The translations under genes were made by a program, and so were the position numbers. DNA of 64,000 nt from positions 10,382-74,381 of IMG/VR virus record IMGVR_UViG_3300021255_001482. One strand, 5' to 3'. Under the pieces are notes generated by a model that saw only the letters and a list, made by a program, of their open reading frames with translations, had not been told where the DNA came from and searched no databases. Below, piece by piece: positions 1 to 30,318 of the stretch (positions within the stretch are counted from its first letter, which is position 1; the number at the start of each line of letters is the position of its first letter). Source of the DNA: a virus (lineage: Duplodnaviria > Heunggongvirae > Uroviricota > Caudoviricetes).

Positions 1-56
1 AATCTATTAAATTTCCAAATGTTCAACAGCAAATTGGCTTTATAGGCAATGATAAA

Positions 57-1262
57 TTGGAAGAAATTAATTTAGATAGTCTACAATATATAGAAAGTCA
101 ATATGGCTTTTTACATGACCATAGTTTTTTCTATATACAGTTTCTTCATAATACTAAATTAGAATCATTAGATTTACCAAATCTAATGGGCGCCCGCAAT
201 CCAATACCAAATAGCACTGTTTCTCCAGATGAATCGCAGTCTATGCAAGCTAGCTTTCAGAATAATTATTGGCTGCGCGATGTAGCTATAGGAAAAAATG
301 TAAATATTTTAAATCACAATCAAAGCACAGACTGGTTTAACGGTCTTTGGTTTAGAAATAATTATAGTTTAAAATTTTTACGACTATATAATCCATACGT
401 TCTAACTCCAAATCGTGCTTTAACCGCTGGATTAGGTAGTACTCCTATTGGTTCAGGAAATGGATTTATTTATGTGCCAGAAGAACTATTAGAGGATTAT
501 AAAAATAATACTAATTGGAGCACTTACGCGTCGTTCATTAAACCTTTAACAAGTTATGAAGCTGATAAGGCCCTAGATAAGGATAGTATTAGTGATGATA
601 TTAAAACTTGGGAACAAATTATTAATGATTGTAATTCCGCTTCTGATTTAAATACAAATATTTATAAGATCGGAGCGACTAAAACAATAAAAATTGATGG
701 TATTCCTACTCAAATGGTTATTGTAGATATGAATAAAGATATTAATACTAATGGCAATTCTGTACGATTAACCTGGATGAGTAAAACGATTACATATTTT
801 AATACTGTACCTTGCTCTGCTTTAGCTACCGGGATAGAACGTAATTATAATAAGGCACCTTCGGCTGTAAAAACTTTTTTAGATGAATTATATTTAAAAA
901 TGGACGAACCAATAAGAAATGGTATCAAAACAGTTCAAAAAGAAAGTTTTGGATACAATGAATTAGGAAATAGTACCACTGTTACATCAGAAGAAAAAAT
1001 TTGGATACCATCTGCTGCGGAAGTAGGTATAACTACTCATAATAGCACACAATCTAAACGTTATAGTTATTTCAGTACCGGTAATAAAAATGATTATAAA
1101 TTAGGTGAAACTAATATTCGCCCAACAAATGGTATAGTTACTCGTGATTATAGCAGTTCTACTGCGAGCTATTTAGATACAATTCAATATTCTAATTCAG
1201 TTGTAACTGTAGTTGGTAATAGCGCGTCCAATCCATATATTATTTTTGGTTTCTGTACATAA
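57..1262 (+). CDS. BspA-type leucine-rich-repeat surface/receptor-binding protein fragment with DUF6273-like C-terminal region. Probably 5'-truncated by the window edge.
   Basis: The ORF runs to the window start. The motif ...GNGFIYVPEELLEDYKNNTNWSTYASF... is typical of BspA-like LRR_5 C-termini. The downstream segment (EKIWIPSAAEVG) resembles DUF6273. Confidence 0.45.
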   Translation: MEEINLDSLQYIESQYGFLHDHSFFYIQFLHNTKLESLDLPNLMGARNPIPNSTVSPDESQSMQASFQNNYWLRDVAIGKNVNILNHNQSTDWFNGLWFRNNYSLKFLRLYNPYVLTPNRALTAGLGSTPIGSGNGFIYVPEELLEDYKNNTNWSTYASFIKPLTSYEADKALDKDSISDDIKTWEQIINDCNSASDLNTNIYKIGATKTIKIDGIPTQMVIVDMNKDINTNGNSVRLTWMSKTITYFNTVPCSALATGIERNYNKAPSAVKTFLDELYLKMDEPIRNGIKTVQKESFGYNELGNSTTVTSEEKIWIPSAAEVGITTHNSTQSKRYSYFSTGNKNDYKLGETNIRPTNGIVTRDYSSSTASYLDTIQYSNSVVTVVGNSASNPYIIFGFCT

Positions 1263-1276
1263 AGGAGGTATAAACA

Positions 1277-1902
1277 TGTTAATATATGAAAATTACCAAA
1301 CCTCTGGTATGACAGAGGCGAGAACAAAAGTTTATTCTAATAAACATTTTTATATACAATTAAATGGCAATTATTATGAATCTTATATTTCTAATAATCA
1401 AGAAGAAATAGATAAAATTATTGAATCTAATATTGCCATTAAATCTCCAACCGCTTCAAAGGAATACTTTAATGATTGTTTTCTTACTAATTTTAATAAT
1501 ATAACGCAAGAACAAGTAAAAAAGGCGCATAAATTTTTTACTAAAATGCTAAATGGAATTACAGATAATAATATTTATCAAATACATTTTTTAATTCCTC
1601 TTTGGAGTTCTAGTGTCTCATACGCTACGCATGATATAGTGATGTATAATAATACTATTTATCAAGTATTAAATCCAATTAAATCTAATACTCCACCAGA
1701 TAGAGATTCCATTAATTTTATTGCTATAGAACGTCCTGTGGATTTTATTGAGCCTTGGGATGAAACACGCACACCATACTCTCAAGGCGATAAAATAAAA
1801 ATGGGAGAATATATTTATACAAGTCTAATAAATGATAATAATTGGAATCCTATTGACTTTCCTTTAGCATGGCAATTAGTAAATGAAGGAAGTCAAGATT
1901 AA
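1277..1902 (+). CDS. Hypothetical protein with a C-terminal chitin-binding-type-3 (CBM5/12)-like aromatic motif.
   Basis: There is an AAGGAGGT RBS 8 nt upstream of ATG 1277 (the track ORF starts earlier at 1213). The motif W..TRTPYSQGDKIKMGEYIYTSL..NWNP resembles ChtBD3 and is also seen in ORFs 23714 and 26990. Confidence 0.45.
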
Positions 1903-1905
1903 TTC

Positions 1906-1934
1906 TTGACTTCCTTTTTATTTTTTGGTATAAT
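1906..1934 (+). promoter_or_regulatory. Conserved phage early-type promoter (TTGACT-17-TATAAT, extended AT box).
   Basis: -35 TTGACT at 1906 and -10 TATAAT at 1929. It belongs to the 23-member family. Confidence 0.5.
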
Positions 1935-1964
1935 AAATATAGAAAAAGAAAAGGAGAAAATAAT

Positions 1965-2129
1965 ATGCTATTTCTATTAAAGTCAATTTGTTGTATTGGT
2001 GGAACTTTTATTCTTGCGGGCGTAGTCACTTCTTTTATGGAATGGTGGGAGAAGCGACCAATCGTAGAAGTAAAAGAAGCTCCCTTCTACATTACACGAA
2101 CTTACAAGGATATTAAGAGAGGATATTAA
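1965..2129 (+). CDS. Small hydrophobic protein (54 aa).
   Basis: It lies downstream of the consensus promoter at 1906-1934 and the RBS AAAAGGAGAAAA. It has a single predicted TM stretch. Confidence 0.3.
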   Translation: MLFLLKSICCIGGTFILAGVVTSFMEWWEKRPIVEVKEAPFYITRTYKDIKRGY

Positions 2130-2130
2130 G

Positions 2131-2640
2131 ATGAGTAATTGTAATTGCTATATACGAGATACAGATGGTCTTGGAGGTTACATACCACGTTGCTATGGTA
2201 CAAAAGAAAGAGAAATATGTCAATGTGGCGGAGATGAATCAAAATGTGATTTTTATCCAGAAAAGCGAAAAAAAGCAGAAGTTACAATAACTATGGATGC
2301 AGTAGAATATTTGCGGCAAAAGGCACGTATGTGTGCCTACAAGCGTGTCCCAGAAAATGGGGCTTGTGAAAGATGCCCTTTTAATCAAGTTCTTGATAAA
2401 ATTGATGGTTGCGATGAATTTGATGAACAATATCCAGAAAAGGCAGTTCAGTTAGTTTATGAATGGGCGCAAACTCATCCAGAACTTCCTACTTGGAATG
2501 AATGGTTACATAGTGTTTATAATTATTATAAGGGCTTTAATAAAGATCATACAGAAGTTAGTTTTCTTAACTGGTTAAATACTCCTGTTACTCAAGAGGA
2601 AGTGGAACGTTTTAACATACCAAATAAGAAGGATTTATAA
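2131..2640 (+). CDS. Cys-rich hypothetical protein (Zn-binding?).
   Basis: The 169-aa ORF has a GAGAGG RBS and multiple CxC/CxxC pairs. Confidence 0.5.
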   Translation: MSNCNCYIRDTDGLGGYIPRCYGTKEREICQCGGDESKCDFYPEKRKKAEVTITMDAVEYLRQKARMCAYKRVPENGACERCPFNQVLDKIDGCDEFDEQYPEKAVQLVYEWAQTHPELPTWNEWLHSVYNYYKGFNKDHTEVSFLNWLNTPVTQEEVERFNIPNKKDL

Positions 2641-2641
2641 T

Positions 2642-2989
2642 ATGAATATTTTTAGTTATCCCGCACGTTGTGATTTTTATGAATTTGACCGTTTGAGCAA
2701 AGAAGTGGATGAAACTTTAAAAACTAAAGAAATCTTTATGAACGGTCATGTAGGAAAATATGTGGCAAAAATTCATAATGAGCAAGAATTAGAACTAATA
2801 AAAAATTACTGGAAAGTTGCACTTTCTAGTAGTATAAGCATAGTCACTATTGAAAATGGTGATTTTCGCGGGCCAGACTGGTATTTCATATTCATAAAGC
2901 ATGAATATGCTTATGAAACAATTTGTACTTTAAAAACACTTACAGAACGTAAGCAAGAATTTGAAGATTTTGTGAGGGAATATGATTAA
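2642..2989 (+). CDS. Hypothetical protein.
   Basis: The ORF shows ATAATATG translational coupling with the upstream gene. Confidence 0.45.
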   Translation: MNIFSYPARCDFYEFDRLSKEVDETLKTKEIFMNGHVGKYVAKIHNEQELELIKNYWKVALSSSISIVTIENGDFRGPDWYFIFIKHEYAYETICTLKTLTERKQEFEDFVREYD

Positions 2990-3800
2990 GGTAGATAGAA
3001 GAGAAGTGCAATTTAAGAAGTTTAATGATGGTACTTTGAGATTGCGATTTATACCTCCTTATGCACTAGAAAATGGTTGTATCATCACTTGGTTTTATAA
3101 TAATGATGAAGAAATGGCAGATTTATATTTTCTTGTAAATCATTTACGCGATAATTATAAAATTTTATATTTAATTCTTGAAATGTGGTATGTTCCGCAT
3201 GCTCGAATGGACAGAATTAAGGAAAAAGATGAATGTTTTACTCTCAAACATTTTTGTAAATTTATTAATTCGCTTAATTTTAATAAAGTAAAAATTTATG
3301 ACCCGCATTCTAATGTTACTCCAGCGTTACTAGATAGGGTTGAGGTTTATAGACCCGCTCTTGAAATTAATGGATTATTAGATCATTATAAAGACGCAAC
3401 TTTATTTTTCTGTGACGAAGGCGGTGCTAAGAGATATAAGGATATTATTGGAGATAATTATTTTGCGTTTGGTGTAAAAGATCGAGAGTGGTCAACTCAA
3501 AACATTAATTCTCTTCAGGTTATGGGCGCGAAACATATGATTGCCGGGCATGATATTCTTATTGTAGATGATATTATTTCTCGCGGAAGTACGCTTTATC
3601 TTGCGGCAAAACAATTAAAAGAAATGGGATGCAATAACATTTATGTATGGGCATCGCATTGCGAAAATACTGTACTTCAACCGCATATTAATGGAAAATC
3701 ATTAATGGATATTCCAAATTTAATTACAAAAGTATATACTACAAATTCTATTTATTGTAGCGATCATCCAAATATAATTATTATGAAGGAATTTACATGA
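2982..3800 (+). CDS. Ribose-phosphate pyrophosphokinase (Prs)-family type I phosphoribosyltransferase.
   Basis: Prs-like motifs are present in Prs order: DPHS (cf. DLHA), CDEGGAKR (cf. PDAGGAKR), the PRPP-binding loop ILIVDDIISRGSTL, and C-terminal YVWASHC. Confidence 0.55.
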   Translation: MIKVDRREVQFKKFNDGTLRLRFIPPYALENGCIITWFYNNDEEMADLYFLVNHLRDNYKILYLILEMWYVPHARMDRIKEKDECFTLKHFCKFINSLNFNKVKIYDPHSNVTPALLDRVEVYRPALEINGLLDHYKDATLFFCDEGGAKRYKDIIGDNYFAFGVKDREWSTQNINSLQVMGAKHMIAGHDILIVDDIISRGSTLYLAAKQLKEMGCNNIYVWASHCENTVLQPHINGKSLMDIPNLITKVYTTNSIYCSDHPNIIIMKEFT

Positions 3801-4258
3801 TTAGAATAATAGAAGGAAATTTATTTTCCGCACCTAGCGGTATTATATGCCATCAAGTAAATTGTAAAGGCAGCATGGGACGAGGCGTGGCTAAAACTTT
3901 TAAAGAACTATATCCGTTTGCTTTTAATCAATATCAAAATTTATGTCATGATTTTATAGCAGATGAACTACTTGGTACAATACTAATGCGCGCGGAAATA
4001 GATGGTAAATGGACTTGTTGTATGTTTGCTCAGGATAATTGGAGCGTATATAATTGTAATACAGACTACGCAGCCTTTCGCGAATGTTGTTGCGCAATTA
4101 AGCGTGAAATTAAAGGATTACATTTAAATAACATAACAATTAATATGCCATACGGTATTGGTGCTGGTCTTGGCGGTGGCGAATGGGAAATTATTTATTC
4201 TATTATTGAAGAAGAATTAAATGATTATAATGTTATACTTTGGAAACTTAAACATTGA
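3797..4258 (+). CDS. Macro-domain (ADP-ribose binding/processing) protein.
   Basis: N-terminal IIEGNLFSAPSGIICHQVNCKGSMGRGVAKTF matches the macro-domain pattern (G-[DN]-[IL]..; IvNaaN; GgGvdgAI). Size is about 150 aa. It overlaps the Prs-like gene by 4 nt. Confidence 0.45.
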   Translation: MIRIIEGNLFSAPSGIICHQVNCKGSMGRGVAKTFKELYPFAFNQYQNLCHDFIADELLGTILMRAEIDGKWTCCMFAQDNWSVYNCNTDYAAFRECCCAIKREIKGLHLNNITINMPYGIGAGLGGGEWEIIYSIIEEELNDYNVILWKLKH

Positions 4259-4283
4259 CTTTTAATTAAAATTATATTATAAT
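4255..4283 (+). promoter_or_regulatory. Conserved promoter family member.
   Basis: TTGACT 4255-4260 and TATAAT 4278-4283, with a 17-nt spacer. Confidence 0.5.
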
Positions 4284-4317
4284 ATAAATAAAGAAAAGAA
4301 AAGGAGATAACAAAATT

Positions 4318-4776
4318 ATGAAGATTAACATTACTAAGGACAGGGCTCAGTTTATCGTCAACGAGGACGCACGCAAGGTGATTTGTATTATTGATAATAC
4401 TTCTTACCTATTTCTTGACTATGCTGATAAGAACTTGAAGATTAGGCCTGATTGTGATAATATCATGATTTGGAATAGTAACCTTTCTCATCTGTATCCC
4501 AAGCTAATGATGCCCAATAAGTTTGTTGGCATTGCTTCTTGTAATCCAGAGGATGAGTTTTCTGTTGAGACTGGCAAGCTAATTGCCTTTACTCGCGCGA
4601 AGGACAAGATTCAGAACAGCTTTTTTAAGCGCGCGAATCTATATGTTAATACTATTGATAGTTGGCTAAATCAGGCTATGGATTCTATTAATAGTTATGG
4701 AAAGAAGCTTGAAATCAACACTAAGCGTCGTCATAAGAAGATTGCCTCACTTATTGGTGAGCCAGAGGAAAAGTAA
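4318..4776 (+). CDS. Hypothetical protein.
   Basis: It follows the promoter at 4255-4283 and an AAAAGGAGATAA RBS. Confidence 0.5.
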   Translation: MKINITKDRAQFIVNEDARKVICIIDNTSYLFLDYADKNLKIRPDCDNIMIWNSNLSHLYPKLMMPNKFVGIASCNPEDEFSVETGKLIAFTRAKDKIQNSFFKRANLYVNTIDSWLNQAMDSINSYGKKLEINTKRRHKKIASLIGEPEEK

Positions 4777-5315
4777 TGGGGAGTCGCATCGTACTCCCCT
4801 ATGGGGAATCGGGCGAATATATTCAAAAACTTATACCATATGATGCCTCTTTAAATAGTATCAATTTACCTTCCTTTGATGAATATATGGATACTCGTTA
4901 TCTTGATTTACAAAATATAACTAAACCTGATATAAGAACAGCTATTGAACAGCAATATAATGAATGGTTTACTTGGTATAACGCAACTGAAGATACCCGT
5001 AACTTACTGGCTCCAATTGTAGGAACTGGATGGAGTGAAGATAATATTCCAATTTTATACTTTCCTCGTTTTACACCACTCTTAGACGAAGACAAAGTAT
5101 ATAGTTTAAATAGCACTGAAAATCTAATTATTATGGGAATGCGATTACAGCGTTTCAATATTAGTGAAGCAGAGGTAACAGATTTTTTACGAGAAATTCC
5201 AATAGTGTGCAATTACTTGGAATTAAATGAGGAAGATATTATAAATAATCCGTCAAATATTGGCTACAACCCAACTTTTGGTTTACGCATTATTGACTAT
5301 GGATTAAGTACTTGA
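4776..5315 (+). CDS. Hypothetical protein.
   Basis: The ORF has a TAATG stop-start overlap with the upstream gene. Confidence 0.5.
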   Translation: MGSRIVLPYGESGEYIQKLIPYDASLNSINLPSFDEYMDTRYLDLQNITKPDIRTAIEQQYNEWFTWYNATEDTRNLLAPIVGTGWSEDNIPILYFPRFTPLLDEDKVYSLNSTENLIIMGMRLQRFNISEAEVTDFLREIPIVCNYLELNEEDIINNPSNIGYNPTFGLRIIDYGLST

Positions 5316-5340
5316 CTTTTATCTAAAATTCTGATATAAT
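5312..5340 (+). promoter_or_regulatory. Conserved promoter family member.
   Basis: TTGACTTTTATCTAAAATTCTGATATAATAATAT. Confidence 0.55.
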
Positions 5341-5363
5341 AATATCAGAAAGGGGAAAGGAGA

Positions 5364-5609
5364 ATGACAAACTTGCATCCTAATTTTTATGATATTGACG
5401 ATTGGATTATTCTTGATACAATGGCAGTCAATATGTATGATGAAAATGAAACACCTTTCATTGCGATAAAGGTAAAGATTGGTGTTTTAGACGCGGAGGA
5501 AATCAATATTAATAATACCTATTCCAAGCGCACTTTTGATATTGTTCGCTGGATTTCTAAAAAGGAATTTGACCGCCTTAGAAGCGGTGCTGGAGTGATT
5601 GTATGGTAG
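5364..5609 (+). CDS. Hypothetical protein.
   Basis: It follows the promoter at 5312-5340 and a GGGGAAAGGAG RBS. Confidence 0.5.
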   Translation: MTNLHPNFYDIDDWIILDTMAVNMYDENETPFIAIKVKIGVLDAEEININNTYSKRTFDIVRWISKKEFDRLRSGAGVIVW

Positions 5610-5706
5610 GCGCGTGGTGGTTATTCGGTTCATTCATTTTAGGAATGGCAGTTGGTATCTTTTTAATTGCTTTAGTCTCCGCGAATAAATATTAAAGAGG
5701 AACAAT

Positions 5707-5907
5707 ATGAAATTTTACAACGAAGAATCTTATAAGGCTTCACAAGAACCGACCCCAGTAAAGATTGAAGAAGAATTCGGTTGTGGTTTTTGCTGGGACA
5801 AAAAGAGAAAGAAGGAAAAGGAACTATTCTTTTTAGATGCAGCAAATAACATGAGGATATGTAATTATTGTCCTTCTTGCGGCCGCAAGTATAGTGAAGA
5901 AGAGTAA
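5707..5907 (+). CDS. Small zinc-ribbon protein.
   Basis: It has CGFC...CNYCPSC pairs and an AAAGAGGAACAA RBS. A terminator hairpin follows. Confidence 0.45.
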   Translation: MKFYNEESYKASQEPTPVKIEEEFGCGFCWDKKRKKEKELFFLDAANNMRICNYCPSCGRKYSEEE

Positions 5908-5932
5908 GGTTTGACCTTACTCTTTTTTATTT
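5906..5932 (+). terminator. Rho-independent terminator.
   Basis: Hairpin GTAAGGTTTGACCTTAC followed by TCTTTTTTATTT. Confidence 0.5.
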
Positions 5933-6013
5933 ATAGTAAGAAGAAAACGGGCTGATTACTTTCTAATTCTCATACACTTTCAATGAAGGATATTTATATT
6001 CGGAGGACCACAT

Positions 6014-6448
6014 ATGAATAGTTATAATGGTATGATGAATAATAATAACCTAATGGGCATGATGAATGGAATGAACGCTATGCCACAACAAGATTATTTG
6101 TCTCGCATGAGTGTAAATAGTTTTCCTCGTTATGACATTATTAAGGTTAAGGGCCAAAATGGCGCAGACGCTTTTCAAATGGCGCCCAATAGTAAAGTTC
6201 TATTATTAGATGAAAACGATCCTCTGGTCTGGTTTGTACAGACAGATGGCGCGGGATACAAAACAGTAACCCCATATACCATTACGCCATTTCAACCAGC
6301 CCCGCCAGTTGATTTAAATTCTCTTGAACAACGACTAGCAGCATTGGAGGAAAAGATGTATGCCAAATCCTATAATGGAGCAAATAAACAGCGGAAGTCA
6401 AATACCCGCAACGAACAACTTGACGAAACCTCAAATACAGCAGGCTAA
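6014..6448 (+). CDS. Asn/Met-rich hypothetical (virion?) protein.
   Basis: It has a CGGAGGACCACAT RBS. Its 3' end overlaps the next gene by 89 nt in another frame. Confidence 0.45.
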   Translation: MNSYNGMMNNNNLMGMMNGMNAMPQQDYLSRMSVNSFPRYDIIKVKGQNGADAFQMAPNSKVLLLDENDPLVWFVQTDGAGYKTVTPYTITPFQPAPPVDLNSLEQRLAALEEKMYAKSYNGANKQRKSNTRNEQLDETSNTAG

Positions 6449-6647
6449 ACAAGCATTACAACAGCTAATGAGTTTAAGAAATCCCCAAGCTATGATGAAT
6501 CAAATGCTTATGAATAATCCTAATATTAAACCAGCATTAGAATTAATCAAACAAAATGGAGGAAATCTCCAAACAGCTTTTATGTCATTAGCAAAACAAA
6601 AAGGTATTAACCCCACAGAATTTATACAAGAATTAATGAGTCAGTAA
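6360..6647 (+). CDS. Gln-rich hypothetical protein.
   Basis: Its own GGAGGAAAAG RBS lies 5 nt upstream of ATG 6360. A strong terminator follows at 6675-6700. Confidence 0.45.
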   Translation: MPNPIMEQINSGSQIPATNNLTKPQIQQAKQALQQLMSLRNPQAMMNQMLMNNPNIKPALELIKQNGGNLQTAFMSLAKQKGINPTEFIQELMSQ

Positions 6648-6674
6648 TTTATTACTGGCTCTTTTATTATGTCA

Positions 6675-6700
6675 AAAATCCGCTAGAGCGGATTTTTTAT
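6675..6700 (+). terminator. Rho-independent terminator.
   Basis: AAAATCCGCTAGAGCGGATTTTTTATT. Confidence 0.6.
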
Positions 6701-6731
6701 TATATATAATAAAATTAGAGAGGTGTCCCTT

Positions 6732-7439
6732 ATGAATGGTAATGAAGGACTAACTGCTTCTGATGTTGCTCTACTAACCGGCAATAATAATGGCTGGGGT
6801 ATGGAAGGAGGCTGGGGTAGCATGATTTGGCTATTCGCAATTATTGCCCTAATGGGCGGCTGGGGCAACGGTGGCTTTGGTGGCAATGGCTACCATCCAC
6901 AGTATGCTACACAAGATTTCGTACAAAATGGTTTCAACTTTAATGACCTACAAGACCAAAATCGTGATCTAATGAATGCTGTTACTAACGGTGCTGCTCA
7001 GGCTGTAGCCGCTACTAATCAGGCAAAGTATGACAATATTAATGTAGCTAAAGATATTCAGGCTGCTTTAGCAGCTCAAATTGGTGACATTCGTACCAAT
7101 CAAATGACTCTACTAGCTAACCAGAATCAGTGCTGCTGCGATACTCGTATGGCAATGATGGAAGGCTTCAATGGCATTAATGCTGGCATCGCCCAGGCTC
7201 GTTATGAGAACGCTATGAATACCGCTTCTATCAACCAGACTACTAATGCTGGCGTTCAGAAGATTATTGATGCTATTACTGGTAATCGTATGGCTGATAT
7301 GCAGAATCAGATTGATGCTCTACAGCTACAGAACGCTCTAAACGGCGTAGTTCGTTATCCTTCCGGCTGGACTTACAATGCCGGTAACAATCCTTTCTGC
7401 AACAACAATGGTTGCGGCTGCAATGGATTCAACATGTAA
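6732..7439 (+). CDS. Gly/Trp-rich membrane-anchored protein with a CCC motif.
   Basis: The start was chosen at ATG 6732 after AGAGGTG. It has an N-terminal GGWGSMIWLFAIIALMGGWGNGGFGG TM-like segment. Confidence 0.45.
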   Translation: MNGNEGLTASDVALLTGNNNGWGMEGGWGSMIWLFAIIALMGGWGNGGFGGNGYHPQYATQDFVQNGFNFNDLQDQNRDLMNAVTNGAAQAVAATNQAKYDNINVAKDIQAALAAQIGDIRTNQMTLLANQNQCCCDTRMAMMEGFNGINAGIAQARYENAMNTASINQTTNAGVQKIIDAITGNRMADMQNQIDALQLQNALNGVVRYPSGWTYNAGNNPFCNNNGCGCNGFNM

Positions 7440-7475
7440 TTTAAACACCGAACACATTTAGTGTGTCTAGTTTAA

Positions 7476-7512
7476 TGAGGCACTTGTTTTCGGACAGGTG
7501 CCTCTTTTTTAT
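7476..7512 (+). terminator. Rho-independent terminator.
   Basis: GAGGCACTTGTTTTCGGACAGGTGCCTC followed by TTTTTTATT. Confidence 0.55.
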
Positions 7513-7528
7513 TATAGGAGGAATTAAA

Positions 7529-7942
7529 ATGATTCAAGCTTATAGTGATGGCGTAACTGTCGCCGCTAATGGTACTTATCCTTTAAATAATGTTGTTTTT
7601 CTAAAAGGTAATACAGCTGTAGCCGCAGGCGCGGGCGGAATTGCCCTAACAAAGCGTGGTATTTATAATGTTCATGTAGATGGTTTTGCTACTTTAGCTG
7701 ACGCAGGAGATTATTCTATTCAGCTAACTCGCAATGGTGTACCACTACCACAAGCTATTAGCACAACTACTCTTGCGGCCGCAGGTTCTGCGAATGGTGC
7801 TTTTGAAGCTCTCGTAGTAGTAGAAGAAAGTGATTGTCCTTGTAATTGGACTTCTGCGGCAGTAACTATTGGTGTTCTAAATCCAAGCGAAGTTGAGGCA
7901 ACAGACGCACATATTAATATGATAGTTTCTAAATTAATTTAA
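7529..7942 (+). CDS. Small beta-rich protein, possibly a BclA-C/C1q-like jelly-roll fold (fibre knob?).
   Basis: There is a GGAGGAATTAAA RBS before ATG 7529. The upstream part of track ORF 7463 is covered by a terminator hairpin at 7476-7512. Pattern: G.Y.V.V.G......G.Y.I.L..NG. Confidence 0.4.
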   Translation: MIQAYSDGVTVAANGTYPLNNVVFLKGNTAVAAGAGGIALTKRGIYNVHVDGFATLADAGDYSIQLTRNGVPLPQAISTTTLAAAGSANGAFEALVVVEESDCPCNWTSAAVTIGVLNPSEVEATDAHINMIVSKLI

Positions 7943-7956
7943 TGGAGGGATGAGTT

Positions 7957-8820
7957 ATGGCTCAGAACAATCAAGAACTACAAACTCTCTACTCCGAACT
8001 AATTAATAGAATGAAGCAGGGTGTGGAGATGCACGAGCAGCTTGCTGATTATTATGCTTTCTTAAACCTACCTGGTTATCAGAAGTGTCATGAGTATCAA
8101 ATGCTTTGCGAACTACTTACATATCGTAAGGCAAAAGATATGTATATGAAAGAGTACAATCAGTTAGTACAGCCTACATATATGGTAAGTGGCATGTTAT
8201 CTAATATGGCTAATATGGCCAATAATAATCAAAATAATAATCAAAATAATAATAATCAAAATAGTATGAATAACAATAATATGAATAATAATATCAATGG
8301 CATGACCAGTATGGCTAATGTTGGTAAAAATTATGCTAATAATGTTATTCCTACCACTTGGTATAATTACACTCGTTATGATGTAGACCAAGGAACCAAA
8401 CGCAATGCGGTTAAAGATGGTTTTAAAAAGTGGATTGAATATGAGAAAGAAACTCGTCAGTATCTATCTCAAATGGCACAGCGTTTAGAGCAAATGAATG
8501 AGCGTGAAGCTGCCCGCAAATTAGACCATCTAATTGAGCATGTAGAAAAAGAAATTGCAACTGCTGAAAACAAGATGATGAATCTTGAAAGTACTGGCTA
8601 TGATATGGCCTATATTTTACAACAGCAAGATGAACTAAAGCGTCATTATGCTGACAAGATTCGTACAATGAATGAAAAGAATTCTCAATTCCGTCGTCGC
8701 GGCGAAGGTAATTATGCTAATTACAATTTCAATGATGACGATGAAGATGAAGATGAAGAAGAGTTTGGATACTATCCACGTTATAACAGACGCGGAAATG
8801 ATTATAGATATTATCGTTAA
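7957..8820 (+). CDS. Asn-rich coiled-coil protein with an acidic C-terminus (scaffold/assembly?).
   Basis: It has a GGAGGGATGAG RBS, a long poly-N/Q low-complexity run, a coiled-coil, and a DDDEDEDEEE tail. Confidence 0.5.
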   Translation: MAQNNQELQTLYSELINRMKQGVEMHEQLADYYAFLNLPGYQKCHEYQMLCELLTYRKAKDMYMKEYNQLVQPTYMVSGMLSNMANMANNNQNNNQNNNNQNSMNNNNMNNNINGMTSMANVGKNYANNVIPTTWYNYTRYDVDQGTKRNAVKDGFKKWIEYEKETRQYLSQMAQRLEQMNEREAARKLDHLIEHVEKEIATAENKMMNLESTGYDMAYILQQQDELKRHYADKIRTMNEKNSQFRRRGEGNYANYNFNDDDEDEDEEEFGYYPRYNRRGNDYRYYR

Positions 8821-8838
8821 ATGAGAGGGTGATGATTA

Positions 8839-9213
8839 ATGATTAGGCTAATTCAGCGTCGTTTAATCATTCCTCGCGGTGACACCGGTTCTTTTACTAT
8901 ACCCTTACAGGGAACGGTGGAAGGAAATGATACAGCGGTTTTTTATATATATGACCCAATGACTAAAAAATCGGTTCATGCTATAAAGGGTACTATTGAT
9001 GATGATATTATTACGATTAATTTTACTCGTGAAGATACTGCTGATTTAGAACCTAAAAAATATCTTTGGGATATAGTTTTATATAAGAATCCGCAATATG
9101 AAGAAGGCGATGAAGAGCAAATACGCCCTATAGATGGTGATGAAATTAATTCATATTATGCAGCCTTCTCTCTTCCAATTTGTGATATTCGGGAAGTGAC
9201 TCAAGATGTGTAA
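8839..9213 (+). CDS. Hypothetical structural-module protein.
   Basis: It has a GAGAGGGTGA RBS. Confidence 0.45.
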   Translation: MIRLIQRRLIIPRGDTGSFTIPLQGTVEGNDTAVFYIYDPMTKKSVHAIKGTIDDDIITINFTREDTADLEPKKYLWDIVLYKNPQYEEGDEEQIRPIDGDEINSYYAAFSLPICDIREVTQDV

Positions 9214-9589
9214 AGAAAGATGGCGTACAAGAGATTTACTTCTTGAATATAATTCTCACATTATGCCGCCCAGACCTCGCACCGCAGGTCTGGGAATGGT
9301 TTATCCTTGGGAGAATGCATCCATTAGTAGTTTAGTAAAACAATTATTTATAATCGCAGCTGGAAGTGGCTATTATGGCACAGAAACTGAGTTTAAAAAG
9401 CATTTTGGTGCATATCTTAATAATAAACAAATTATTTTTGATTTATTTACAAATTTTCCAGCTACGGGTTCAGAAGAATATCTATATTTTGATTTAGATG
9501 AAAAGATACTTTATTATTGGGATAATGAATATATTCCAGTTAATGCAATGCTTATCGCAAATACTATTATAGATGGAGGCGAGGCATAA
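9206..9589 (+). CDS. Hypothetical protein.
   Basis: The ORF overlaps its neighbours by 8 nt and 1 nt. The internal ATG at 9263 is an alternative start. Confidence 0.4.
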   Translation: MCKERWRTRDLLLEYNSHIMPPRPRTAGLGMVYPWENASISSLVKQLFIIAAGSGYYGTETEFKKHFGAYLNNKQIIFDLFTNFPATGSEEYLYFDLDEKILYYWDNEYIPVNAMLIANTIIDGGEA

Positions 9590-10530
9590 TGGCACAAAAT
9601 AATGTAAAAGCAACCTTGATTCTCCGTAATGACTCCGCCGAAATGTGGGCGTCTAAAAATCCAAAATTAGCACGCGGTGAAGTTGGTATTGAAATTGATA
9701 CCGGTTTAGTCAAAGTTGGCGATGGCGTTACTAATTTTAACGACCTAGATTATATAAATACTCATACTAATGTTGATGGCATATTAACCACTTTAGTTGA
9801 TGATAAAATCAGCGTAGCAGACTTTGGAAAGACTTATTGGTATTATAATGAAAACACTTTTGAAGAAATACAAGTAAATGAAACAGATTTAACAAAATGG
9901 CCTACTAGGGTAGAATTAGAAGTAAAAAATGGAACGGCTCGTTGGGTGCGACCAAAAGCAACATATGACCCAATGCAGGGTACTTTAGATGGTGTTTTAG
10001 TTACTCTTGTGCGTGATCCTCAAGCCAATAATGAAGCCTCTACAAAAAATTATGTAGATGTTACAGTAGCAAACGCTGTTGCTAGTGCTGACCATCTTAA
10101 ACGTCGTGTAGTCACTGAACTACCTACTACAAGTATTGAATCCAATACCATATATATGATAAAGGATACTACTGCTACTGGTGCAGATAAATATAAAGAA
10201 TATATTTCAATAGATGGCGTCCTGACTCAAATTGGTGATACATCAGTGGATTTAACTAACTACGTTCAGAAACCTTCTGTACAAGCTCCAGGTAACTTGG
10301 CAAGTATAGCGGCAGATGGTAGTTTGGTTGATAGTGGAGTCGCCGCAAGTGATGTGGGTAAATTAAATATTGCTACCTCCACAACGCTAGGTGGTGTATA
10401 TTCTAGTAATGCTGATAACAGTGTTTCAGTTGACTCTATCACTGGTATTATGTCACTTAATCGTGTTTCAACTACAAAATTATATGTTCCAAATGGTGAT
10501 GAATTTATTCTTAATGGCGGTACAGCATAA
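9589..10530 (+). CDS. Tail fibre protein with a HylP/hyaluronidase-phage-type N-terminal anchor motif.
   Basis: N-terminal LRNDSAEMWASKNPKLARGEVGIEIDTGLVKVGDGVTNFNDL has the conserved R.D....W......GE......K.GDG..W..L pattern. Three downstream ORFs share it. Confidence 0.6.
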   Translation: MAQNNVKATLILRNDSAEMWASKNPKLARGEVGIEIDTGLVKVGDGVTNFNDLDYINTHTNVDGILTTLVDDKISVADFGKTYWYYNENTFEEIQVNETDLTKWPTRVELEVKNGTARWVRPKATYDPMQGTLDGVLVTLVRDPQANNEASTKNYVDVTVANAVASADHLKRRVVTELPTTSIESNTIYMIKDTTATGADKYKEYISIDGVLTQIGDTSVDLTNYVQKPSVQAPGNLASIAADGSLVDSGVAASDVGKLNIATSTTLGGVYSSNADNSVSVDSITGIMSLNRVSTTKLYVPNGDEFILNGGTA

Positions 10531-10543
10531 GGAGGTGTAAGCA

Positions 10544-12166
10544 ATGCCTAGTAATACAATTCAAACTAGAATTCAATTAAAATATGATACTTTAACTCAT
10601 TGGATGTCTAGCACATTTGTTCCAATGAAGGGTGAAGTTTGTATTGCTGAAATACCTACTGGGGCTACCGCAAGTCCAGACGGCAATACATTATCAAATA
10701 ATCCACCAGCTATAGGTATTAAAATTGGTGATGGAGTTGCGGGACATACTTTTTCTGTTTTACCTTGGATTCAAGCAATAGCTGGCGATGTTTATAGTTG
10801 GGCAAAAGCCGCAACAAAACCTACTTATACAGCATCAGAAATTGAAAATATTGATTCATACATTGCTGGCCAAATTCAAGATACTGATACACAATATAGA
10901 ATCCAAGCAGGCACCGGAAACGATGCAGGTAAATATTTTTTACAATCTAAGGCAAAAGGAACTGATGACGATACTTTTACAACTATAAGTACAATTGATT
11001 TATCAAGTGTACAAGATGCTTTAGAGTTTGATGGTACATATAATGCTTCTACTAATAAAGTAGCTACTCAAAGTACTGTAATAGATGCTATTAGTGGATT
11101 AACTGATACTCTTACCGGGACTCCTGGAGCAGCAAAAACCATTACAGTTTTTGACGAAGTGGATGGTAAAATTACTGCCACCTTTAGTGATATTGCCATT
11201 GCAGAATCTCAGGTTACTAATTTAACTACAGATTTAGCCGCAAAAGCGCCAATCAATTCTCCGGATTTGACTGGTACTCCTACAGCTCCCACAGCCGCAG
11301 CTGGTACAAATACCACACAAATTGCTACCACAGCATTTGTTCATGATGCAGTTGCTGGTTTAAGTGGAGCAATGCATTATCAAGGTGAAGTTGAAGCTGA
11401 CCCAACACAGACGACTCCAACAGGAACTTATAATGCTGGTGATGTTGTTACTTATGGTAATTCAGAATATGTTTATGATGGCACCAGTTGGCGTGAATTA
11501 GGCGACGAAGGTTCTTATGCTTTAAAAACCACTACAGTAACTGGTACTGATGGATTAACTGGCGGTGGCGCAATTAGTTCTAATCAAACAATTAGTCACG
11601 CAGTTCCTTCTGGAGCTACAGCAAGCACTAAAGGCACAGCAGGTGGCCGCACATATATCCAAACAATTACTACTGATAAATTTGGTCATATTACTGATGT
11701 GGCTACTGCTACAGAAACAGTAACAGATACTACTTATACATTTGCTGAAGGCTCCGTAAATGGTGAATTTTCAGTCACACCAACCGGTGGTACTGCTTCT
11801 CAAGTAAAAGTACATGGATTAGATGCGGCAGCGTATAAAGATGTTAGTACCTCAATTCCTGCCTCTGGGACAGCTGATGATGCTAAATTACCAACGGTTG
11901 CTGCGGTCAAGGCTTATGCAAGTGGACTAGTAACTGATTTAGACTCTTCTCAATCTGCTACCGCCGCGAACGGTGATGTTTATAGTGTTTTAACTGGCAT
12001 CACTCAAACCAATGGTGAGCTTTCTAGTCATACAGAAGTTACTTTAGCAAAAATTGCTAAAACTGGTAGTATATATGATATTACCGAAGGTAGTAATACA
12101 ACAGCAACAGGAAGTCAAAAATATTTAATTTTAGATTGCGGTTCTGCTTCAATCTTGGTAGACTGA
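10544..12166 (+). CDS. Tail fibre protein (Thr/Ala-rich shaft) with the same N-terminal anchor motif.
   Basis: It has a GGAGGTGTAAGCA RBS. It begins IQTRIQLKYDTLTHWMSSTFVPMKGEV...IKIGDGV. Confidence 0.6.
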   Translation: MPSNTIQTRIQLKYDTLTHWMSSTFVPMKGEVCIAEIPTGATASPDGNTLSNNPPAIGIKIGDGVAGHTFSVLPWIQAIAGDVYSWAKAATKPTYTASEIENIDSYIAGQIQDTDTQYRIQAGTGNDAGKYFLQSKAKGTDDDTFTTISTIDLSSVQDALEFDGTYNASTNKVATQSTVIDAISGLTDTLTGTPGAAKTITVFDEVDGKITATFSDIAIAESQVTNLTTDLAAKAPINSPDLTGTPTAPTAAAGTNTTQIATTAFVHDAVAGLSGAMHYQGEVEADPTQTTPTGTYNAGDVVTYGNSEYVYDGTSWRELGDEGSYALKTTTVTGTDGLTGGGAISSNQTISHAVPSGATASTKGTAGGRTYIQTITTDKFGHITDVATATETVTDTTYTFAEGSVNGEFSVTPTGGTASQVKVHGLDAAAYKDVSTSIPASGTADDAKLPTVAAVKAYASGLVTDLDSSQSATAANGDVYSVLTGITQTNGELSSHTEVTLAKIAKTGSIYDITEGSNTTATGSQKYLILDCGSASILVD

Positions 12167-27824: not shown

Positions 27825-27913
27825 GTCCGTATACTCAAGTGGCTGAAGAGATTTGTCTTGAAAACAAAGAGGCCGTGATGAGCGGCGCGAGGGTTCGAAT
27901 CCTTCTACGGACG
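27825..27913 (+). tRNA. tRNA-Ser (anticodon TGA), type II.
   Basis: Acceptor GTCCGTA/TACGGAC, 3-bp D stem, anticodon loop CTTGAAA, long variable arm, T-arm GAGGG-TTCGAAT-CCTTC, discriminator G, encoded CCA. Confidence 0.6.
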
Positions 27914-27920
27914 CCAATAT

Positions 27921-30315: not shown

Positions 30316-30318
30316 CCA

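What the first reader, a model, noticed from the sequence alone, without database searches (positions are those of the whole stretch)
2982..4258. Prs-like phosphoribosyltransferase overlapping a macro-domain gene: possible NAD+/ADP-ribose counter-defence module
ORF 2982-3800 carries Prs (ribose-phosphate pyrophosphokinase) motifs but is N-terminally shortened (272 aa). The overlapping ORF 3797-4258 looks like a macro domain, a binder/hydrolase of ADP-ribose derivatives. Phage Prs homologs have been reported to pyrophosphorylate ADP-ribose in NAD+-reconstitution pathways that defeat NAD-depleting defences (Thoeris, DSR, SIR2). No NAMPT-like partner is visible here. A macro domain partner would be a different solution.
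Basis: partly seen in the sequence, partly recalled or inferred. Interest (0 to 1): 0.6.

Follow-up and report, generated by a model that had tools for sequence, protein, structure and literature searches.

The report
Phage ADP-ribose recycling genes lacking Namat
Two overlapping genes of a large rumen/gut phage encode the first two enzymes of a known phage pathway that rebuilds NAD+ after bacterial defences destroy it, but this phage lineage appears to have lost the third, NAD+-forming enzyme while keeping the first two under selection.

Summary
ORF 2982-3800 (272 aa) is a Prs-family enzyme and ORF 3797-4258 (153 aa) is a macro domain. They overlap by ATGA.

Neither gene is a new kind. The first belongs to the Adps clade (ADP-ribose pyrophosphokinase of the NARP1 pathway), not to canonical PRPP synthetases. 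The second belongs to the macro family of Adpp, the ADPR-1''-phosphate phosphatase of the extended pathway NARP1-AP (Osterman et al., bioRxiv 2026). So an Adps-macro pairing is already published. In that pathway the macro enzyme feeds Adps and does not replace Namat.

The unusual part is the absence of Namat/Nampt:
- No homologue lies in the window or in 18.6 kb of its flanks.
- None lies in a composite tiling of the whole ~180-kb genome built from close relatives. tBLASTn gave nothing at E<=0.01, and a Namat profile gave nothing at E<=10 on 14,238 ORFs.
- By contrast, 74 of the 80 nearest Adps homologues have Namat directly downstream.

The Namat-less phages form one clade (96% bootstrap). 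They keep Adps under purifying selection (dN/dS 0.04-0.22) and share substitutions at two otherwise invariant Adps positions.

The final step of the pathway is therefore unknown. It is either supplied in trans or the module has been repurposed. I class this as a new variant of a known kind, of moderate interest.

The parts
2982..3800 (+). Adps-like enzyme (272 aa). It is a Prs-family diphosphokinase of the ADP-ribose pyrophosphokinase (Adps) clade.
   Evidence: - PHROG 619 at 179.9 bits, the same family as the validated SPbetaL1 and Gary Adps.
- TIGR01251 at 75.5 bits against a cutoff of 113. The validated Adps score 106 and 99.9, also below the cutoff.
- 35% identity, E 1e-32, to SPbetaL1 Adps.
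- Nested in the Adps clade in an NJ tree. It joins Namat-linked Lachnospiraceae Adps in 91% of bootstraps.
- The catalytic Lys is conserved as K166, equivalent to SPbetaL1 K162.
- About 20 Adps-specific residues are retained. G173Q, G203S and P144C are changes at positions otherwise invariant.
- dN/dS is 0.04-0.22.
3797..4258 (+). Macro-domain protein (153 aa) of the Adpp / Poa1p / TARG1 class. Predicted ADPR-1''-phosphate phosphatase.
   Evidence: - PHROG 335 'phosphatase' at E 3e-34, the same family and profile region as the validated Gary Adpp.
- 25% identity, E 3e-12, full length, to Gary Adpp.
- All 12 invariant columns of the alignment with NARP1-associated Adpp are kept.
- AlphaFold2 pLDDT 94.9; Foldseek gives DarG, Poa1p, BT1257 and TARG1 at TM about 0.8.
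- H19 and S26 align with Poa1p H23 and S30. Q79 replaces the catalytic Lys of DarG/TARG1.
- dN/dS is 0.07-0.09.
3797..3800 (+). ATGA overlap of the Adps stop codon and the macro start codon (translational coupling).
   Evidence: Read directly from the sequence. The same overlap is seen in relatives L021, L022, L325 and L326.
2642..2989 (+). Upstream ORF of 115 aa, function unknown. It overlaps the Adps start by 8 nt. It is variable among relatives, so probably not an obligate partner.
   Evidence: No hit in Pfam, PHROGs or NCBIfam. Present in L021, L022 and L023; absent from L020, L325 and L326.
2131..2640 (+). Cys-rich ORF of 169 aa, function unknown, in the same putative transcription unit.
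   Evidence: No family hits. Homologues are present in L020, L021, L023 and L326 but not in L022.
1885..1934 (+). Terminator-like hairpin (1885-1917) followed by a promoter-like site TTGACT-17-TATAAT (1906-1934). Probable start of the unit that contains the pair.
   Evidence: Pattern scan only. The total number of promoter-like hits is not above the shuffled expectation, so this is suggestive only.
4255..4283 (+). Promoter-like site TTGACT-17-TATAAT at the end of the macro gene. Probable start of the next unit (ORFs 4318-4776 and 4776-5315), marking the 3' boundary of the module.
   Evidence: Pattern scan, suggestive only. The two downstream ORFs have no informative family hits.

Best explanation
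The two overlapping genes encode the ADP-ribose-processing front end of the phage NAD+ reconstitution pathway NARP1-AP.

Steps inferred from homology (not assayed here):
- The macro protein is an Adpp-type phosphatase. It converts ADPR-1''-phosphate, the product of RES-type NAD+ phosphorylases such as aRES, into free ADP-ribose. It may also release ADPR from other ADPR conjugates.
- The Prs-like protein is an Adps. It uses ATP to pyrophosphorylate ADPR at C1'' to give ADPR-PP.

What is shown here: in this ~180-kb rumen/gut phage lineage the third enzyme is missing. That enzyme is Namat, which joins ADPR-PP to nicotinamide to make NAD+. NadE, which accompanies Namat in related Bacillota clusters, is missing too. 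Adps is nevertheless kept under purifying selection. The module occurs as Adps-macro, PncA-Adps-macro or PncA-Adps.

Inferred: the phage keeps only the steps that a host cannot perform. The base-transfer step is then supplied in trans by a host or prophage NAMPT/NAPRT-family enzyme (plus host NadE if nicotinate is used). Alternatively, ADPR-PP has another fate. Identity and chemistry of the two enzymes are well supported by homology. The completion step is unknown.
For: Identity of the two proteins:
- Both fall in the same PHROG families as the biochemically validated Adps and Adpp.
- Adps is nested within the Adps clade and away from E. coli and archaeal Prs.
- Adps is below all NCBIfam Prs cutoffs, as the validated Adps are.
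- The catalytic Lys is conserved, and about 20 Adps-specific residues are retained.
- The macro fold is modelled at pLDDT 94.9, with Poa1p, DarG and TARG1 as best matches.
- All 12 Adpp-invariant residues are kept.
- The Poa1p H23 and S30 equivalents are present, and the DarG/TARG1 catalytic Lys is absent.

Association with the pathway:
- 74 of the 80 nearest Adps homologues in GTDB genomes have Namat immediately downstream, usually as PncA-Adps-Namat-NadE.
- 55 of the 80 nearest macro homologues in IMG/VR lie in PncA-Adps-Namat-macro-NadE clusters.
- The published pathway is described.

Absence of Namat:
- No tBLASTn hit better than E = 3.1 in the window.
- None in 8.7 kb upstream or 9.9 kb downstream.
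- None at E<=0.01 in 160 loci (2.4 Mb) that tile the circular genome of close relatives.
- A 73-sequence Namat HMM finds nothing at E<=10 in 14,238 ORFs, while the positive control scores 1.7e-247.
- The query detects 2,046 phage Namat/Nampt records down to 26% identity.

The module is maintained:
- dN/dS is 0.04-0.22 at dS up to 1.3.
- The Namat-less clade is monophyletic in 96% of bootstraps.
- PncA-Adps-macro recurs in members whose Adps is only 48% identical.

Trans-completion has some precedent: KVP40 Nampt can make NAD+ from ADPR-PP.
Against: - No activity was measured. Substrate specificity is inferred from homology at 25-35% identity to the validated enzymes.
- The Namat-less clade carries fixed substitutions at positions invariant in 72 Namat-linked Adps. 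G173 becomes Q or M and G203 becomes S in the whole clade; P144 becomes C or T in the window subgroup. Specificity may therefore have shifted.
- Namat owes its ADPR-PP preference to a dedicated 'selectivity clamp' (PMC12774641), and KVP40 Nampt prefers PRPP. Housekeeping host enzymes may therefore use ADPR-PP poorly.
- The genome-wide absence of Namat rests on a composite of relatives. The window's own genome was read directly for only about 82.6 kb of at least 153 kb.
- A non-homologous replacement for Namat would not have been detected.
- The host is unknown.
Confidence: 0.55

Rival explanations
1. Neofunctionalised Adps. After losing Namat, the clade's enzyme acts on a different substrate, or makes ADPR-PP (or its cyclic-phosphate breakdown product) as an end product. 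It could, for example, drain free ADPR or ADPR-derived immune signals, or make an inhibitor of NADase effectors. The macro domain would supply ADPR from various conjugates.
For: - There are clade-wide substitutions at otherwise invariant positions in the catalytic flexible loop (G173Q/M) and in the phosphate-binding loop (G203S). P144C/T occurs in the window subgroup.
- The Namat-less clade is monophyletic and long-lived, and under purifying selection.
- Orphan Adps genes also exist in bacterial chromosomes, for example L223. Osterman 2024 reports 3% of Adps without Namat.
Against: - About 20 Adps-specific residues and the catalytic K166/R168 are unchanged.
- The closest relatives of both proteins are embedded in full NAD+ clusters.
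- PncA co-occurs with the module, which points to continued involvement in nicotinamide/NAD+ metabolism.
- No known benefit of ADPR-PP as an end product is on record.
Confidence: 0.2
2. Ordinary three-gene NARP1-AP, with Namat encoded elsewhere in this phage's own genome, outside the parts read directly.
For: - Only about 82.6 kb of this exact genome was read (window plus L016 and L012). A contig of 152,925 bp carrying the exact proteins exists.
- Accessory genes move around in this phage group: the macro gene lies at another site in L053-L055.
Against: - Composite tiling of the whole circle from close relatives shows no Namat/Nampt/Nmnat/NadE. This includes 64 kb of a contig whose macro is 94% identical and 98 kb of a 181-kb contig that starts and ends in the same GyrA gene, so it is apparently circular or complete.
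- 97% of known Adps have Namat within 10 genes, and 74 of the 80 nearest homologues have it immediately downstream. A distal Namat would itself be atypical.
Confidence: 0.08
3. The macro domain works independently of Adps as a de-ADP-ribosylase. It would reverse host ADP-ribosyltransferase defences (DarT-like DNA ADP-ribosylation, or RNA/protein ARTs). The adjacency to Adps would reflect only a shared hotspot for accessory genes.
For: - The best single-sequence matches are to DarG macrodomains: PDB 5m3i at E 8e-8, NCBIfam DarG at 56.6 bits, and Foldseek top hit 5m3e.
- The SCO6735/BT1257-type relatives score best against the family profile.
- 19 of the 80 closest macro relatives are not next to any NAD+ gene.
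- In some relatives the macro gene sits at another locus.
Against: - The position of the catalytic Lys of DarG/TARG1 (FPTKKHW) is Gln (FAQDNW), as in Adpp.
- The His and Ser mutated in the Poa1p structures are conserved, whereas DarG has Asn and Val there.
- Validated Gary Adpp also hits the DarG model and TARG1 best, so those hits do not discriminate.
- There is a 4-nt overlap with Adps.
- About three quarters of the closest relatives are inside NARP1-type clusters.
Confidence: 0.1
4. The Prs-like enzyme is a true PRPP synthetase that boosts nucleotide and NAD precursor supply. This would fit the phage's nucleobase permease and nucleoside deoxyribosyltransferases.
For: - It has a Prs-family fold and catalytic residues.
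- The phage carries a Xan_ur_permease and two Nuc_deoxyrib_tr genes that would benefit from PRPP.
- Namat is absent.
Against: - The score is below the curated cutoff of every NCBIfam Prs model (75.5 against 113).
- It is nested within the Adps clade with Namat-linked sisters.
- It keeps Adps-specific residues where Prs differs, and its lineage-specific changes do not revert to Prs states.
- The validated SPbetaL1 Adps gave no measurable product in the assay meant to test PRPP-synthetase activity, and the authors concluded it is not a Prs.
Confidence: 0.05

Closest known systems
NARP1-AP of Vibrio phage Gary (Adps - Adpp - Namat; Osterman et al., bioRxiv 10.64898/2026.01.28.702374)
   Same: Both have an Adps-family gene directly followed by a small Poa1p-like macro-domain gene. 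Both proteins fall in the same PHROG families, 619 and 335. All Adpp-invariant residues are conserved. The expected chemistry is ADPR-1''P -> ADPR -> ADPR-PP.
   Different: There is no Namat in the operon, in the window, or in the tiled genome of the lineage. In Gary all three genes are required. Identity to the Gary proteins is only 25-28%. The host range also differs: a Bacillota-type rumen/gut phage here, against Vibrio, Pseudomonas and Acinetobacter phages in their Table S1.
NARP1 of Bacillus phage SPbetaL1 / E. coli phage Bas63 (Adps + Namat; Osterman et al. 2024)
   Same: The Adps is 35% identical (E 1e-32). It has the same length (272 aa), the same catalytic Lys, and the PHS-V--AL and HxEN motifs.
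   Different: The Namat partner is missing and a macro gene stands in its place. There are substitutions at G173, G203 and P144, which are invariant in Namat-linked Adps.
PncA-Adps-Namat-macro-NadE clusters of gut/rumen Bacillota phages and MAG contigs (e.g. MT835544.1 = L001; L184, L185; many IMG/VR contigs)
   Same: These are the nearest relatives of both proteins: Adps 35-46% identical and macro 37-45% identical. They come from the same ecological setting. PncA is also adjacent in sister genomes of the window's clade.
   Different: Those clusters contain Namat between Adps and the macro gene, and NadE after it. The window's clade lacks both, and Adps abuts the macro gene with a 4-nt overlap.
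Yeast Poa1p (ADP-ribose 1''-phosphate phosphatase; PDB 6LFQ)
   Same: Same macro fold (TM 0.81-0.84). The H-x-x-N-C and G-S-x-G motifs are shared: Poa1p H23 and S30 correspond to H19 and S26.
   Different: Only 21-23% identity. Poa1p acts in tRNA-splicing by-product clearance, not in phage counter-defence. Poa1p lacks the Q79 motif that is shared with Adpp, BT1257 and SCO6735.
DarG antitoxin macrodomain / human TARG1 (ADP-ribosyl glycohydrolases)
   Same: These are the best single-sequence and structural matches (5m3e at TM 0.81; the NCBIfam DarG model).
   Different: The catalytic Lys is replaced by Gln. There is no DarG C-terminal domain and no DarT neighbour. The conserved His and Ser of the Poa1p/Adpp type are present instead of the Asn and Val of DarG.
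Canonical ribose-phosphate pyrophosphokinase (Prs; class I E. coli/B. subtilis, class III archaeal)
   Same: Same fold, the catalytic K-x-R flexible loop, the DD motif, and diphosphoryl transfer from ATP.
   Different: It is below all curated Prs cutoffs and about 40 residues shorter. About 20 conserved positions differ. Phylogenetically it lies inside the phage Adps clade.

Membership tests
Adps (ADPR-PP synthetase of NARP1) | Sequence falls in the Adps clade, separate from cellular Prs | tested here: met
   - NJ tree of 88 sequences. The window group joins Namat-linked Bacillota Adps before SPbetaL1 and Gary Adps in 91% of bootstraps. The Adps clade excludes Prs in 76%.
- PHROG 619 at 179.9 bits, the same family as the validated Adps.
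- TIGR01251 at 75.5 bits, below the cutoff of 113, like the validated Adps at 106 and 99.9.
Adps (ADPR-PP synthetase of NARP1) | Catalytic lysine of the flexible loop (SPbetaL1 K162 = B. subtilis Prs K197) | tested here: met
   K166 and R168 are invariant columns in alignment A2. The K162A mutant is described.
Adps (ADPR-PP synthetase of NARP1) | Residues conserved across Namat-linked Adps | tested here: inconclusive
   Most of the 57 columns conserved at >=85% are kept, including about 20 that differ from Prs. Three positions that are 99-100% conserved are changed: P144C, G173Q and G203S. G173 and G203 are also changed in the distant Namat-less member L325.
Adps (ADPR-PP synthetase of NARP1) | Namat homologue within 10 genes (true for 97% of the clade) | tested here: not met
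   There is no NAMPT-family hit in the window, its flanks or the tiled genome.
Adps (ADPR-PP synthetase of NARP1) | ATP-dependent pyrophosphorylation of ADPR, and no PRPP synthesis from ribose-5-phosphate | not testable with these tools
   This needs an enzyme assay with LC-MS.
Adpp (macro-domain ADPR-1''-phosphate phosphatase of NARP1-AP) | Macro fold of the Poa1p/TARG1 class | tested here: met
   AlphaFold2 pLDDT 94.9 and pTM 0.90. Foldseek gives Poa1p at TM 0.81-0.84, DarG at 0.81, BT1257 at 0.82 and TARG1 at 0.74-0.79.
Adpp (macro-domain ADPR-1''-phosphate phosphatase of NARP1-AP) | Conserved residues of NARP1-associated macro proteins | tested here: met
   - All 12 invariant columns are kept: G7, H19, N22, G30, A32, P40, G60, Q79, P118, G122, G127 and W130.
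- PHROG 335 is hit over the same profile region as Gary Adpp.
- E 3e-12 to Gary Adpp.
Adpp (macro-domain ADPR-1''-phosphate phosphatase of NARP1-AP) | Located within two genes of a NARP1 system, which is defined by Adps and Namat in close proximity (criterion of Osterman 2026) | tested here: not met
   The macro gene is adjacent to and overlapping Adps, but no Namat is present. At least 55 of its 80 closest relatives do meet the criterion.
Adpp (macro-domain ADPR-1''-phosphate phosphatase of NARP1-AP) | Dephosphorylates ADPR-1''-phosphate to ADPR | not testable with these tools
   This needs purified protein and ADPR-1''P.
NARP1-AP pathway (three-enzyme system) | All three genes present: Adps, Adpp and Namat | tested here: not met
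   Two of the three are present. Namat is absent.
DarG / TARG1-type ADP-ribosyl glycohydrolase | Catalytic lysine in the P-T-K-x-H-W motif | tested here: not met
   The profile-to-PDB alignment places Q79 (FAQDNW) opposite the DarG FPTKKHW motif.
DarG / TARG1-type ADP-ribosyl glycohydrolase | DarG C-terminal antitoxin domain and adjacent DarT toxin | tested here: not met
   The protein is 153 aa and matches only positions 1-139 of the 338-position DarG model, at 56.6 bits against a cutoff of 250. The neighbours have no DarT-like hits.
Canonical PRPP synthetase (Prs) | Reaches the curated NCBIfam/TIGRFAM score for ribose-phosphate diphosphokinase | tested here: not met
   The best score is TIGR01251 at 75.5 bits against a cutoff of 113. 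All equivalog models score 25-64 bits against cutoffs of 296-536.

The most novel reading that the evidence does not exclude
A monophyletic clade of ~180-kb rumen/gut phages runs a Namat-independent version of ADP-ribose recycling.

It keeps only the steps a cell cannot perform: Adpp (ADPR-1''P -> ADPR), a modified Adps (ADPR -> ADPR-PP), and often PncA (nicotinamide -> nicotinate). Two outcomes are then possible:
- It hijacks a housekeeping host NAPRT/NAMPT and NadE to finish NAD+ synthesis, through a 'deamido' route via NaAD.
- It uses ADPR-PP for a purpose that has not been described.

The clade-specific changes in the catalytic loop (G173) and in the phosphate-binding loop (G203) would be adaptations to this mode.
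Probability: 0.3. Interest if true: 0.7.

Novelty: new variant of a known kind. Interest (0 to 1): 0.45.

Why it matters
NARP1 is defined by the Adps-Namat pair, and the published extension NARP1-AP needs all three enzymes. A long-lived phage clade that keeps Adps (with Adpp and/or PncA) but no Namat gives a natural test of two questions:
- Can ADPR-PP be used by ordinary cellular phosphoribosyltransferases?
- Does ADPR-PP have a role other than as a NAD+ precursor?

Both questions bear on how broadly phages can escape NAD+-depleting immunity (Thoeris, SIR2, DSR, aRES). They also bear on annotation: a 'Prs' next to a macro domain in a phage should be read as Adps/Adpp, not as PRPP synthetase.

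This work also extends the known range of Adpp-type macro genes to phages of gut and rumen Bacillota. There the usual cluster has five genes: PncA-Adps-Namat-macro-NadE.

Tried and rejected
- Stop-codon reassignment as an explanation for the ORF-poor stretches. Reading through TAG, TGA or TAA does not produce long ORFs. The stretches are tRNA arrays.
- Megablast of window 1-12000 against INPHARED phages gave no match, so no annotated close relative was available.
- The neighbouring ORFs (2131-2640, 2642-2989, 4318-4776, 4776-5315) were considered as a hidden transferase:
  - They have no informative Pfam, PHROG or NCBIfam hits.
  - The two upstream ORFs vary among relatives.
  - The two downstream ORFs appear to have their own promoter.
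  - I did not pursue them further.
- A single-sequence AlphaFold2 model of the macro protein was unusable (pLDDT 45.9). It was replaced by a model built on an alignment.
- A decaying remnant or pseudogene was rejected. The ORFs are intact in every relative, dN/dS is at most 0.22, and the arrangement recurs between members whose Adps is only 48% identical.
- A link to tRNA repair was considered, with a Poa1p-like phosphatase clearing Tpt1 by-products. The phage has 29 tRNAs and an RNA ligase. No Tpt1/KptA-type gene was seen in the Pfam listings of the region, and the macro family's genomic association is with NAD+ genes.
- I searched for an Adps structure or specificity determinants in the literature and found none. 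PMC12774641 states that Adps selectivity is still obscure.
Full report
**1. Observation**

The window is a phage region of low G+C (about 0.35) with almost all genes on the + strand. ORF 2982-3800 (272 aa) and ORF 3797-4258 (153 aa) exist as stated. They overlap by ATGA.

The first ORF is a Prs-family protein:
- It matches PHROG 619 'ribose-phosphate pyrophosphokinase' at E 1e-52.
- It matches Pfam Pribosyltran just above its cutoff.
- It matches solved Prs structures at E 7e-10.

The second ORF is a macro domain:
- It matches PHROG 335 'phosphatase' at E 3e-34.
- It scores 21.9 bits on Pfam Macro, against a cutoff of 22.
- It matches the DarG, Poa1p and TARG1 macrodomains in the PDB.
- A single-sequence AlphaFold2 model was useless (pLDDT 46).
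- A model built on 64 homologues has pLDDT 94.9 and pTM 0.90.
- The best Foldseek matches of that model are all macrodomains of the TARG1/DarG/Poa1p class, at TM about 0.8.

**2. What the two proteins are**

The literature held here already describes this gene pair.
- Osterman et al. 2024 (10.1101/2024.02.11.579819) showed that phage 'Prs' genes next to 'Nampt' genes encode Adps (ADPR + ATP -> ADPR-PP) and Namat (ADPR-PP + nicotinamide -> NAD+). Together these form NARP1. In that study 97% of Adps-clade genes had Namat within 10 genes.
- Osterman et al. 2026 (10.64898/2026.01.28.702374) showed that 15% of NARP1 operons carry a Poa1p-like macro gene, Adpp. Adpp converts ADPR-1''-phosphate, the product of the RES-domain defence aRES, into ADPR. 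All three genes are required to defeat aRES.

I took the validated sequences from their supplementary tables and compared them with the window proteins.

Evidence that ORF 2982-3800 is an Adps:
- The validated SPbetaL1 and Gary Adps hit the same PHROG (619). Like the window protein, they fall below the TIGR01251 Prs cutoff. They score 106 and 99.9 bits, the window protein 75.5, and the cutoff is 113.
- The window protein is 35% identical to SPbetaL1 Adps (E 1e-32).
- It conserves the catalytic Lys that was mutated in that study, as K166.
- I built an NJ tree of 88 sequences. These were the 80 nearest GTDB homologues, the phage relatives, the validated Adps, E. coli Prs and two archaeal Prs.
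  - The window group is nested among Namat-linked Bacillota Adps. It joins them before SPbetaL1 and Gary Adps in 91% of bootstraps.
  - The Adps clade excludes Prs in 76% of bootstraps.
- About 20 positions that are conserved in Adps but differ in Prs are kept.

Activity was not measured.

Evidence that ORF 3797-4258 is an Adpp-type macro protein:
- It aligns full-length with Gary Adpp (E 3e-12).
- It keeps all 12 invariant columns of an alignment with NARP1-associated Adpp proteins.
- Its best single-sequence database hits are to DarG. This does not discriminate, because validated Gary Adpp also hits TARG1 and the DarG model best.
- Two residue-level features are informative.
  - The catalytic Lys of DarG/TARG1 (FPTKKHW) is replaced by Gln (FAQDNW), as in Adpp, BT1257 and SCO6735.
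  - H19 and S26 correspond to Poa1p H23 and S30, the residues mutated in PDB 6LFS and 6LFT. DarG has Asn and Val at these positions.
- Genomic association points the same way. Of the 80 closest relatives of this macro protein in IMG/VR, 55 lie in PncA-Adps-Namat-macro-NadE clusters. In 4 more, Namat is present but the contig is cut before Adps.

**3. The missing Namat**

I used the Namat of the closest public phage, MT835544.1 (locus L001). Its layout is Adps - two small ORFs - Namat - macro - NadE - PncA. As a tBLASTn query this Namat detects 2,046 phage records, down to 26% identity.
- In the window its best hit is E = 3.1.
- There is nothing in 8.7 kb upstream or 9.9 kb downstream of the window on contigs that are 100% identical to it.

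IMG/VR holds relatives with genomes of 167-184 kb. One contig of 181,042 bp begins and ends inside GyrA, so it is apparently circular or complete. I used chimeric protein queries to walk both ways around the circle. Collinearity at the two points where I switched between contigs was confirmed by blastn.

The result across the 160 phage-group loci (2.4 Mb):
- Four Namat/Nampt queries, KVP40 Nmnat and NadE gave no hit at E<=0.01.
- An HMM built from 73 Namat/Nampt sequences found nothing at E<=10 among 14,238 stop-to-stop ORFs. It scored the L001 control at 1.7e-247.

The caveat is that this is a composite. The window's own genome was read directly for only about 82.6 kb, and a 152,925-bp contig carrying the exact proteins exists.

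**4. Comparative picture**

In GTDB genomes, all 80 nearest Adps homologues come from contigs labelled Bacillota or binned with them. The main groups are Lachnospiraceae, Acutalibacteraceae, Mogibacterium, Paenibacillus and Cohnella.
- 74 of the 80 have Namat immediately downstream, typically as PncA-Adps-Namat-NadE.
- Of the 6 without Namat, 4 are truncated by contig ends.
- One genuine orphan, L223, sits in an ordinary chromosomal context.

Within the window's phage group the module varies:

| Layout | Where seen |
|---|---|
| Adps-macro | window, L021, L022 |
| PncA-Adps-macro | L326 (Adps 89% identical), L325 (Adps 48% identical) |
| PncA-Adps, no macro | L020, L023 |
| macro, next to PncA in L053 and L055, at another site | L053-L055 |

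These Namat-less Adps form one clade with 96% bootstrap support. They are under purifying selection, with dN/dS 0.04-0.22 at dS up to 1.3. The macro gene has dN/dS 0.07-0.09.

The clade carries substitutions at positions that are 99-100% conserved in 72 Namat-linked Adps:
- G173 becomes Q or M in the K-x-R-x-x-x-T-G catalytic loop.
- G203 becomes S in the D-D-x-x-S-x-G-G-T phosphate-binding loop.
- P144 becomes C or T, but only in the window subgroup.

The simplest history is a PncA-Adps-Namat-macro-NadE ancestor that lost Namat and NadE once. The remaining genes were then retained.

**5. Mechanism**

Supported by homology:
- The macro protein converts ADPR-1''P into ADPR. It may also release ADPR from other ADPR conjugates.
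- Adps converts ADPR and ATP into ADPR-PP.

Inferred: because Adps is selectively maintained without Namat, one of two things must hold.
- (a) The base-transfer step is supplied in trans by a host or prophage NAMPT/NAPRT-family enzyme, with host NadE if nicotinate is used. This is consistent with PncA co-occurring in the module and NadE in the ancestral clusters. KVP40 Nampt can use ADPR-PP, though it prefers PRPP.
- (b) The enzyme or its product has acquired another role.

Against (a): Namat's ADPR-PP preference depends on a dedicated 'selectivity clamp' that canonical enzymes lack (PMC12774641).

I give 0.55 to 'Adps + Adpp front end of NARP1-AP with the last step not phage-encoded'. The rivals are:

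| Rival | Confidence |
|---|---|
| Neofunctionalised Adps | 0.2 |
| Macro domain acting independently as a de-ADP-ribosylase | 0.1 |
| Namat elsewhere in this phage's own genome | 0.08 |
| True Prs | 0.05 |

**6. Operon context**

Promoter-like TTGACT-17-TATAAT sites fall in the intergenic gaps at 1906, 4255 and 5312. There is a TTAACA-18-TATAAT site at 2612 and a terminator-like hairpin at 1885-1917. This suggests a transcription unit from about 1965 to 4258, containing two unknown ORFs, Adps and the macro gene. It is only a consensus scan, and the total number of hits is not above the shuffled expectation.

**7. Verdict**

The residual novelty is that a Namat-less Adps/Adpp(/PncA) module is conserved in a clade of large rumen/gut phages. 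I class it as a new variant of a known kind, of moderate interest.

Noticed in passing
window 27825-31488 and 39171-48244: There are 29 tRNA genes in two loose arrays, covering most amino acids. These explain the ORF-poor, higher-GC stretches. No sign of stop-codon reassignment was found.
   Followed up: partly
window 59103-60895; L012 13440-13919: The phage encodes a xanthine/uracil-permease-family membrane transporter (426 aa). It lies directly after a nucleoside 2-deoxyribosyltransferase-family gene, and a second such gene lies just beyond the window. This is an unusual nucleobase-uptake and salvage set for a phage.
   Followed up: no
L164-L243 (GTDB contigs), L248-L324 (IMG/VR), L001 8001-13251: In gut and rumen Bacillota elements the usual NARP1 locus is a four- or five-gene cluster, PncA-Adps-Namat-(macro)-NadE. 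The nicotinamidase and NAD synthetase suggest a route through nicotinate and deamido-NAD. I found no paper in the searchable library that links NARP1 with PncA or NadE.
   Followed up: partly
window 2982-3800, residues 144, 173, 203; L325 5198-6001; L326 5189-6004: The Namat-less Adps clade has fixed substitutions at positions invariant in 72 Namat-linked Adps. G173 becomes Q or M and G203 becomes S in the whole clade. P144 becomes C or T in the window subgroup only.
   Followed up: partly
L223 9995-10840 (Pelotomaculum MAG DNIT01000093.1): An orphan Adps-clade gene sits in an ordinary bacterial chromosomal context, between a PBP1A-like gene and a cation-efflux-like gene. It has no Namat within 10 kb.
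   Followed up: no
L098 26-10405 (IMGVR_UViG_3300031867_004305): A related genome encodes a 3,459-aa tape-measure-like protein. It contains an intein-like insert (CFVAGT...ILAHN) flanked by poly-Gly. This was judged by eye only.
   Followed up: no
window ~37800-40500 versus L163 3357-6029: A close relative carries a PAPS-reductase-family gene and a 571-aa glycosyltransferase. The window has mostly tRNAs and short ORFs in this region, so it is a variable accessory region.
   Followed up: no
window 35471-37006, 38049-38699, 54888-57903: There is a set of RNA and nucleic-acid repair or stress genes:
- a PHROG 850 'RNA-binding protein' of 511 aa;
- an RNA ligase (PF09414), 58% identical to a gene next to the NAD cluster in L001;
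- an ATP-dependent DNA ligase;
- a ClpP-like protease;
- a PhoH-like protein.
   Followed up: no
window 1906-1934, 4255-4283, 5312-5340: Three near-identical promoter-like sites (TTGACT, 17 nt, TATAAT; 11 of 12 matches) sit precisely in intergenic gaps. They may be a phage early-promoter consensus.
   Followed up: no
window 6014-8820: Several ORFs have strongly Asn/Gln/Met/Gly-rich low-complexity stretches. One ORF (7463-7942) has a faint BclA_C (exosporium collagen-like C-terminal domain) hit. Their function is unknown.
   Followed up: no
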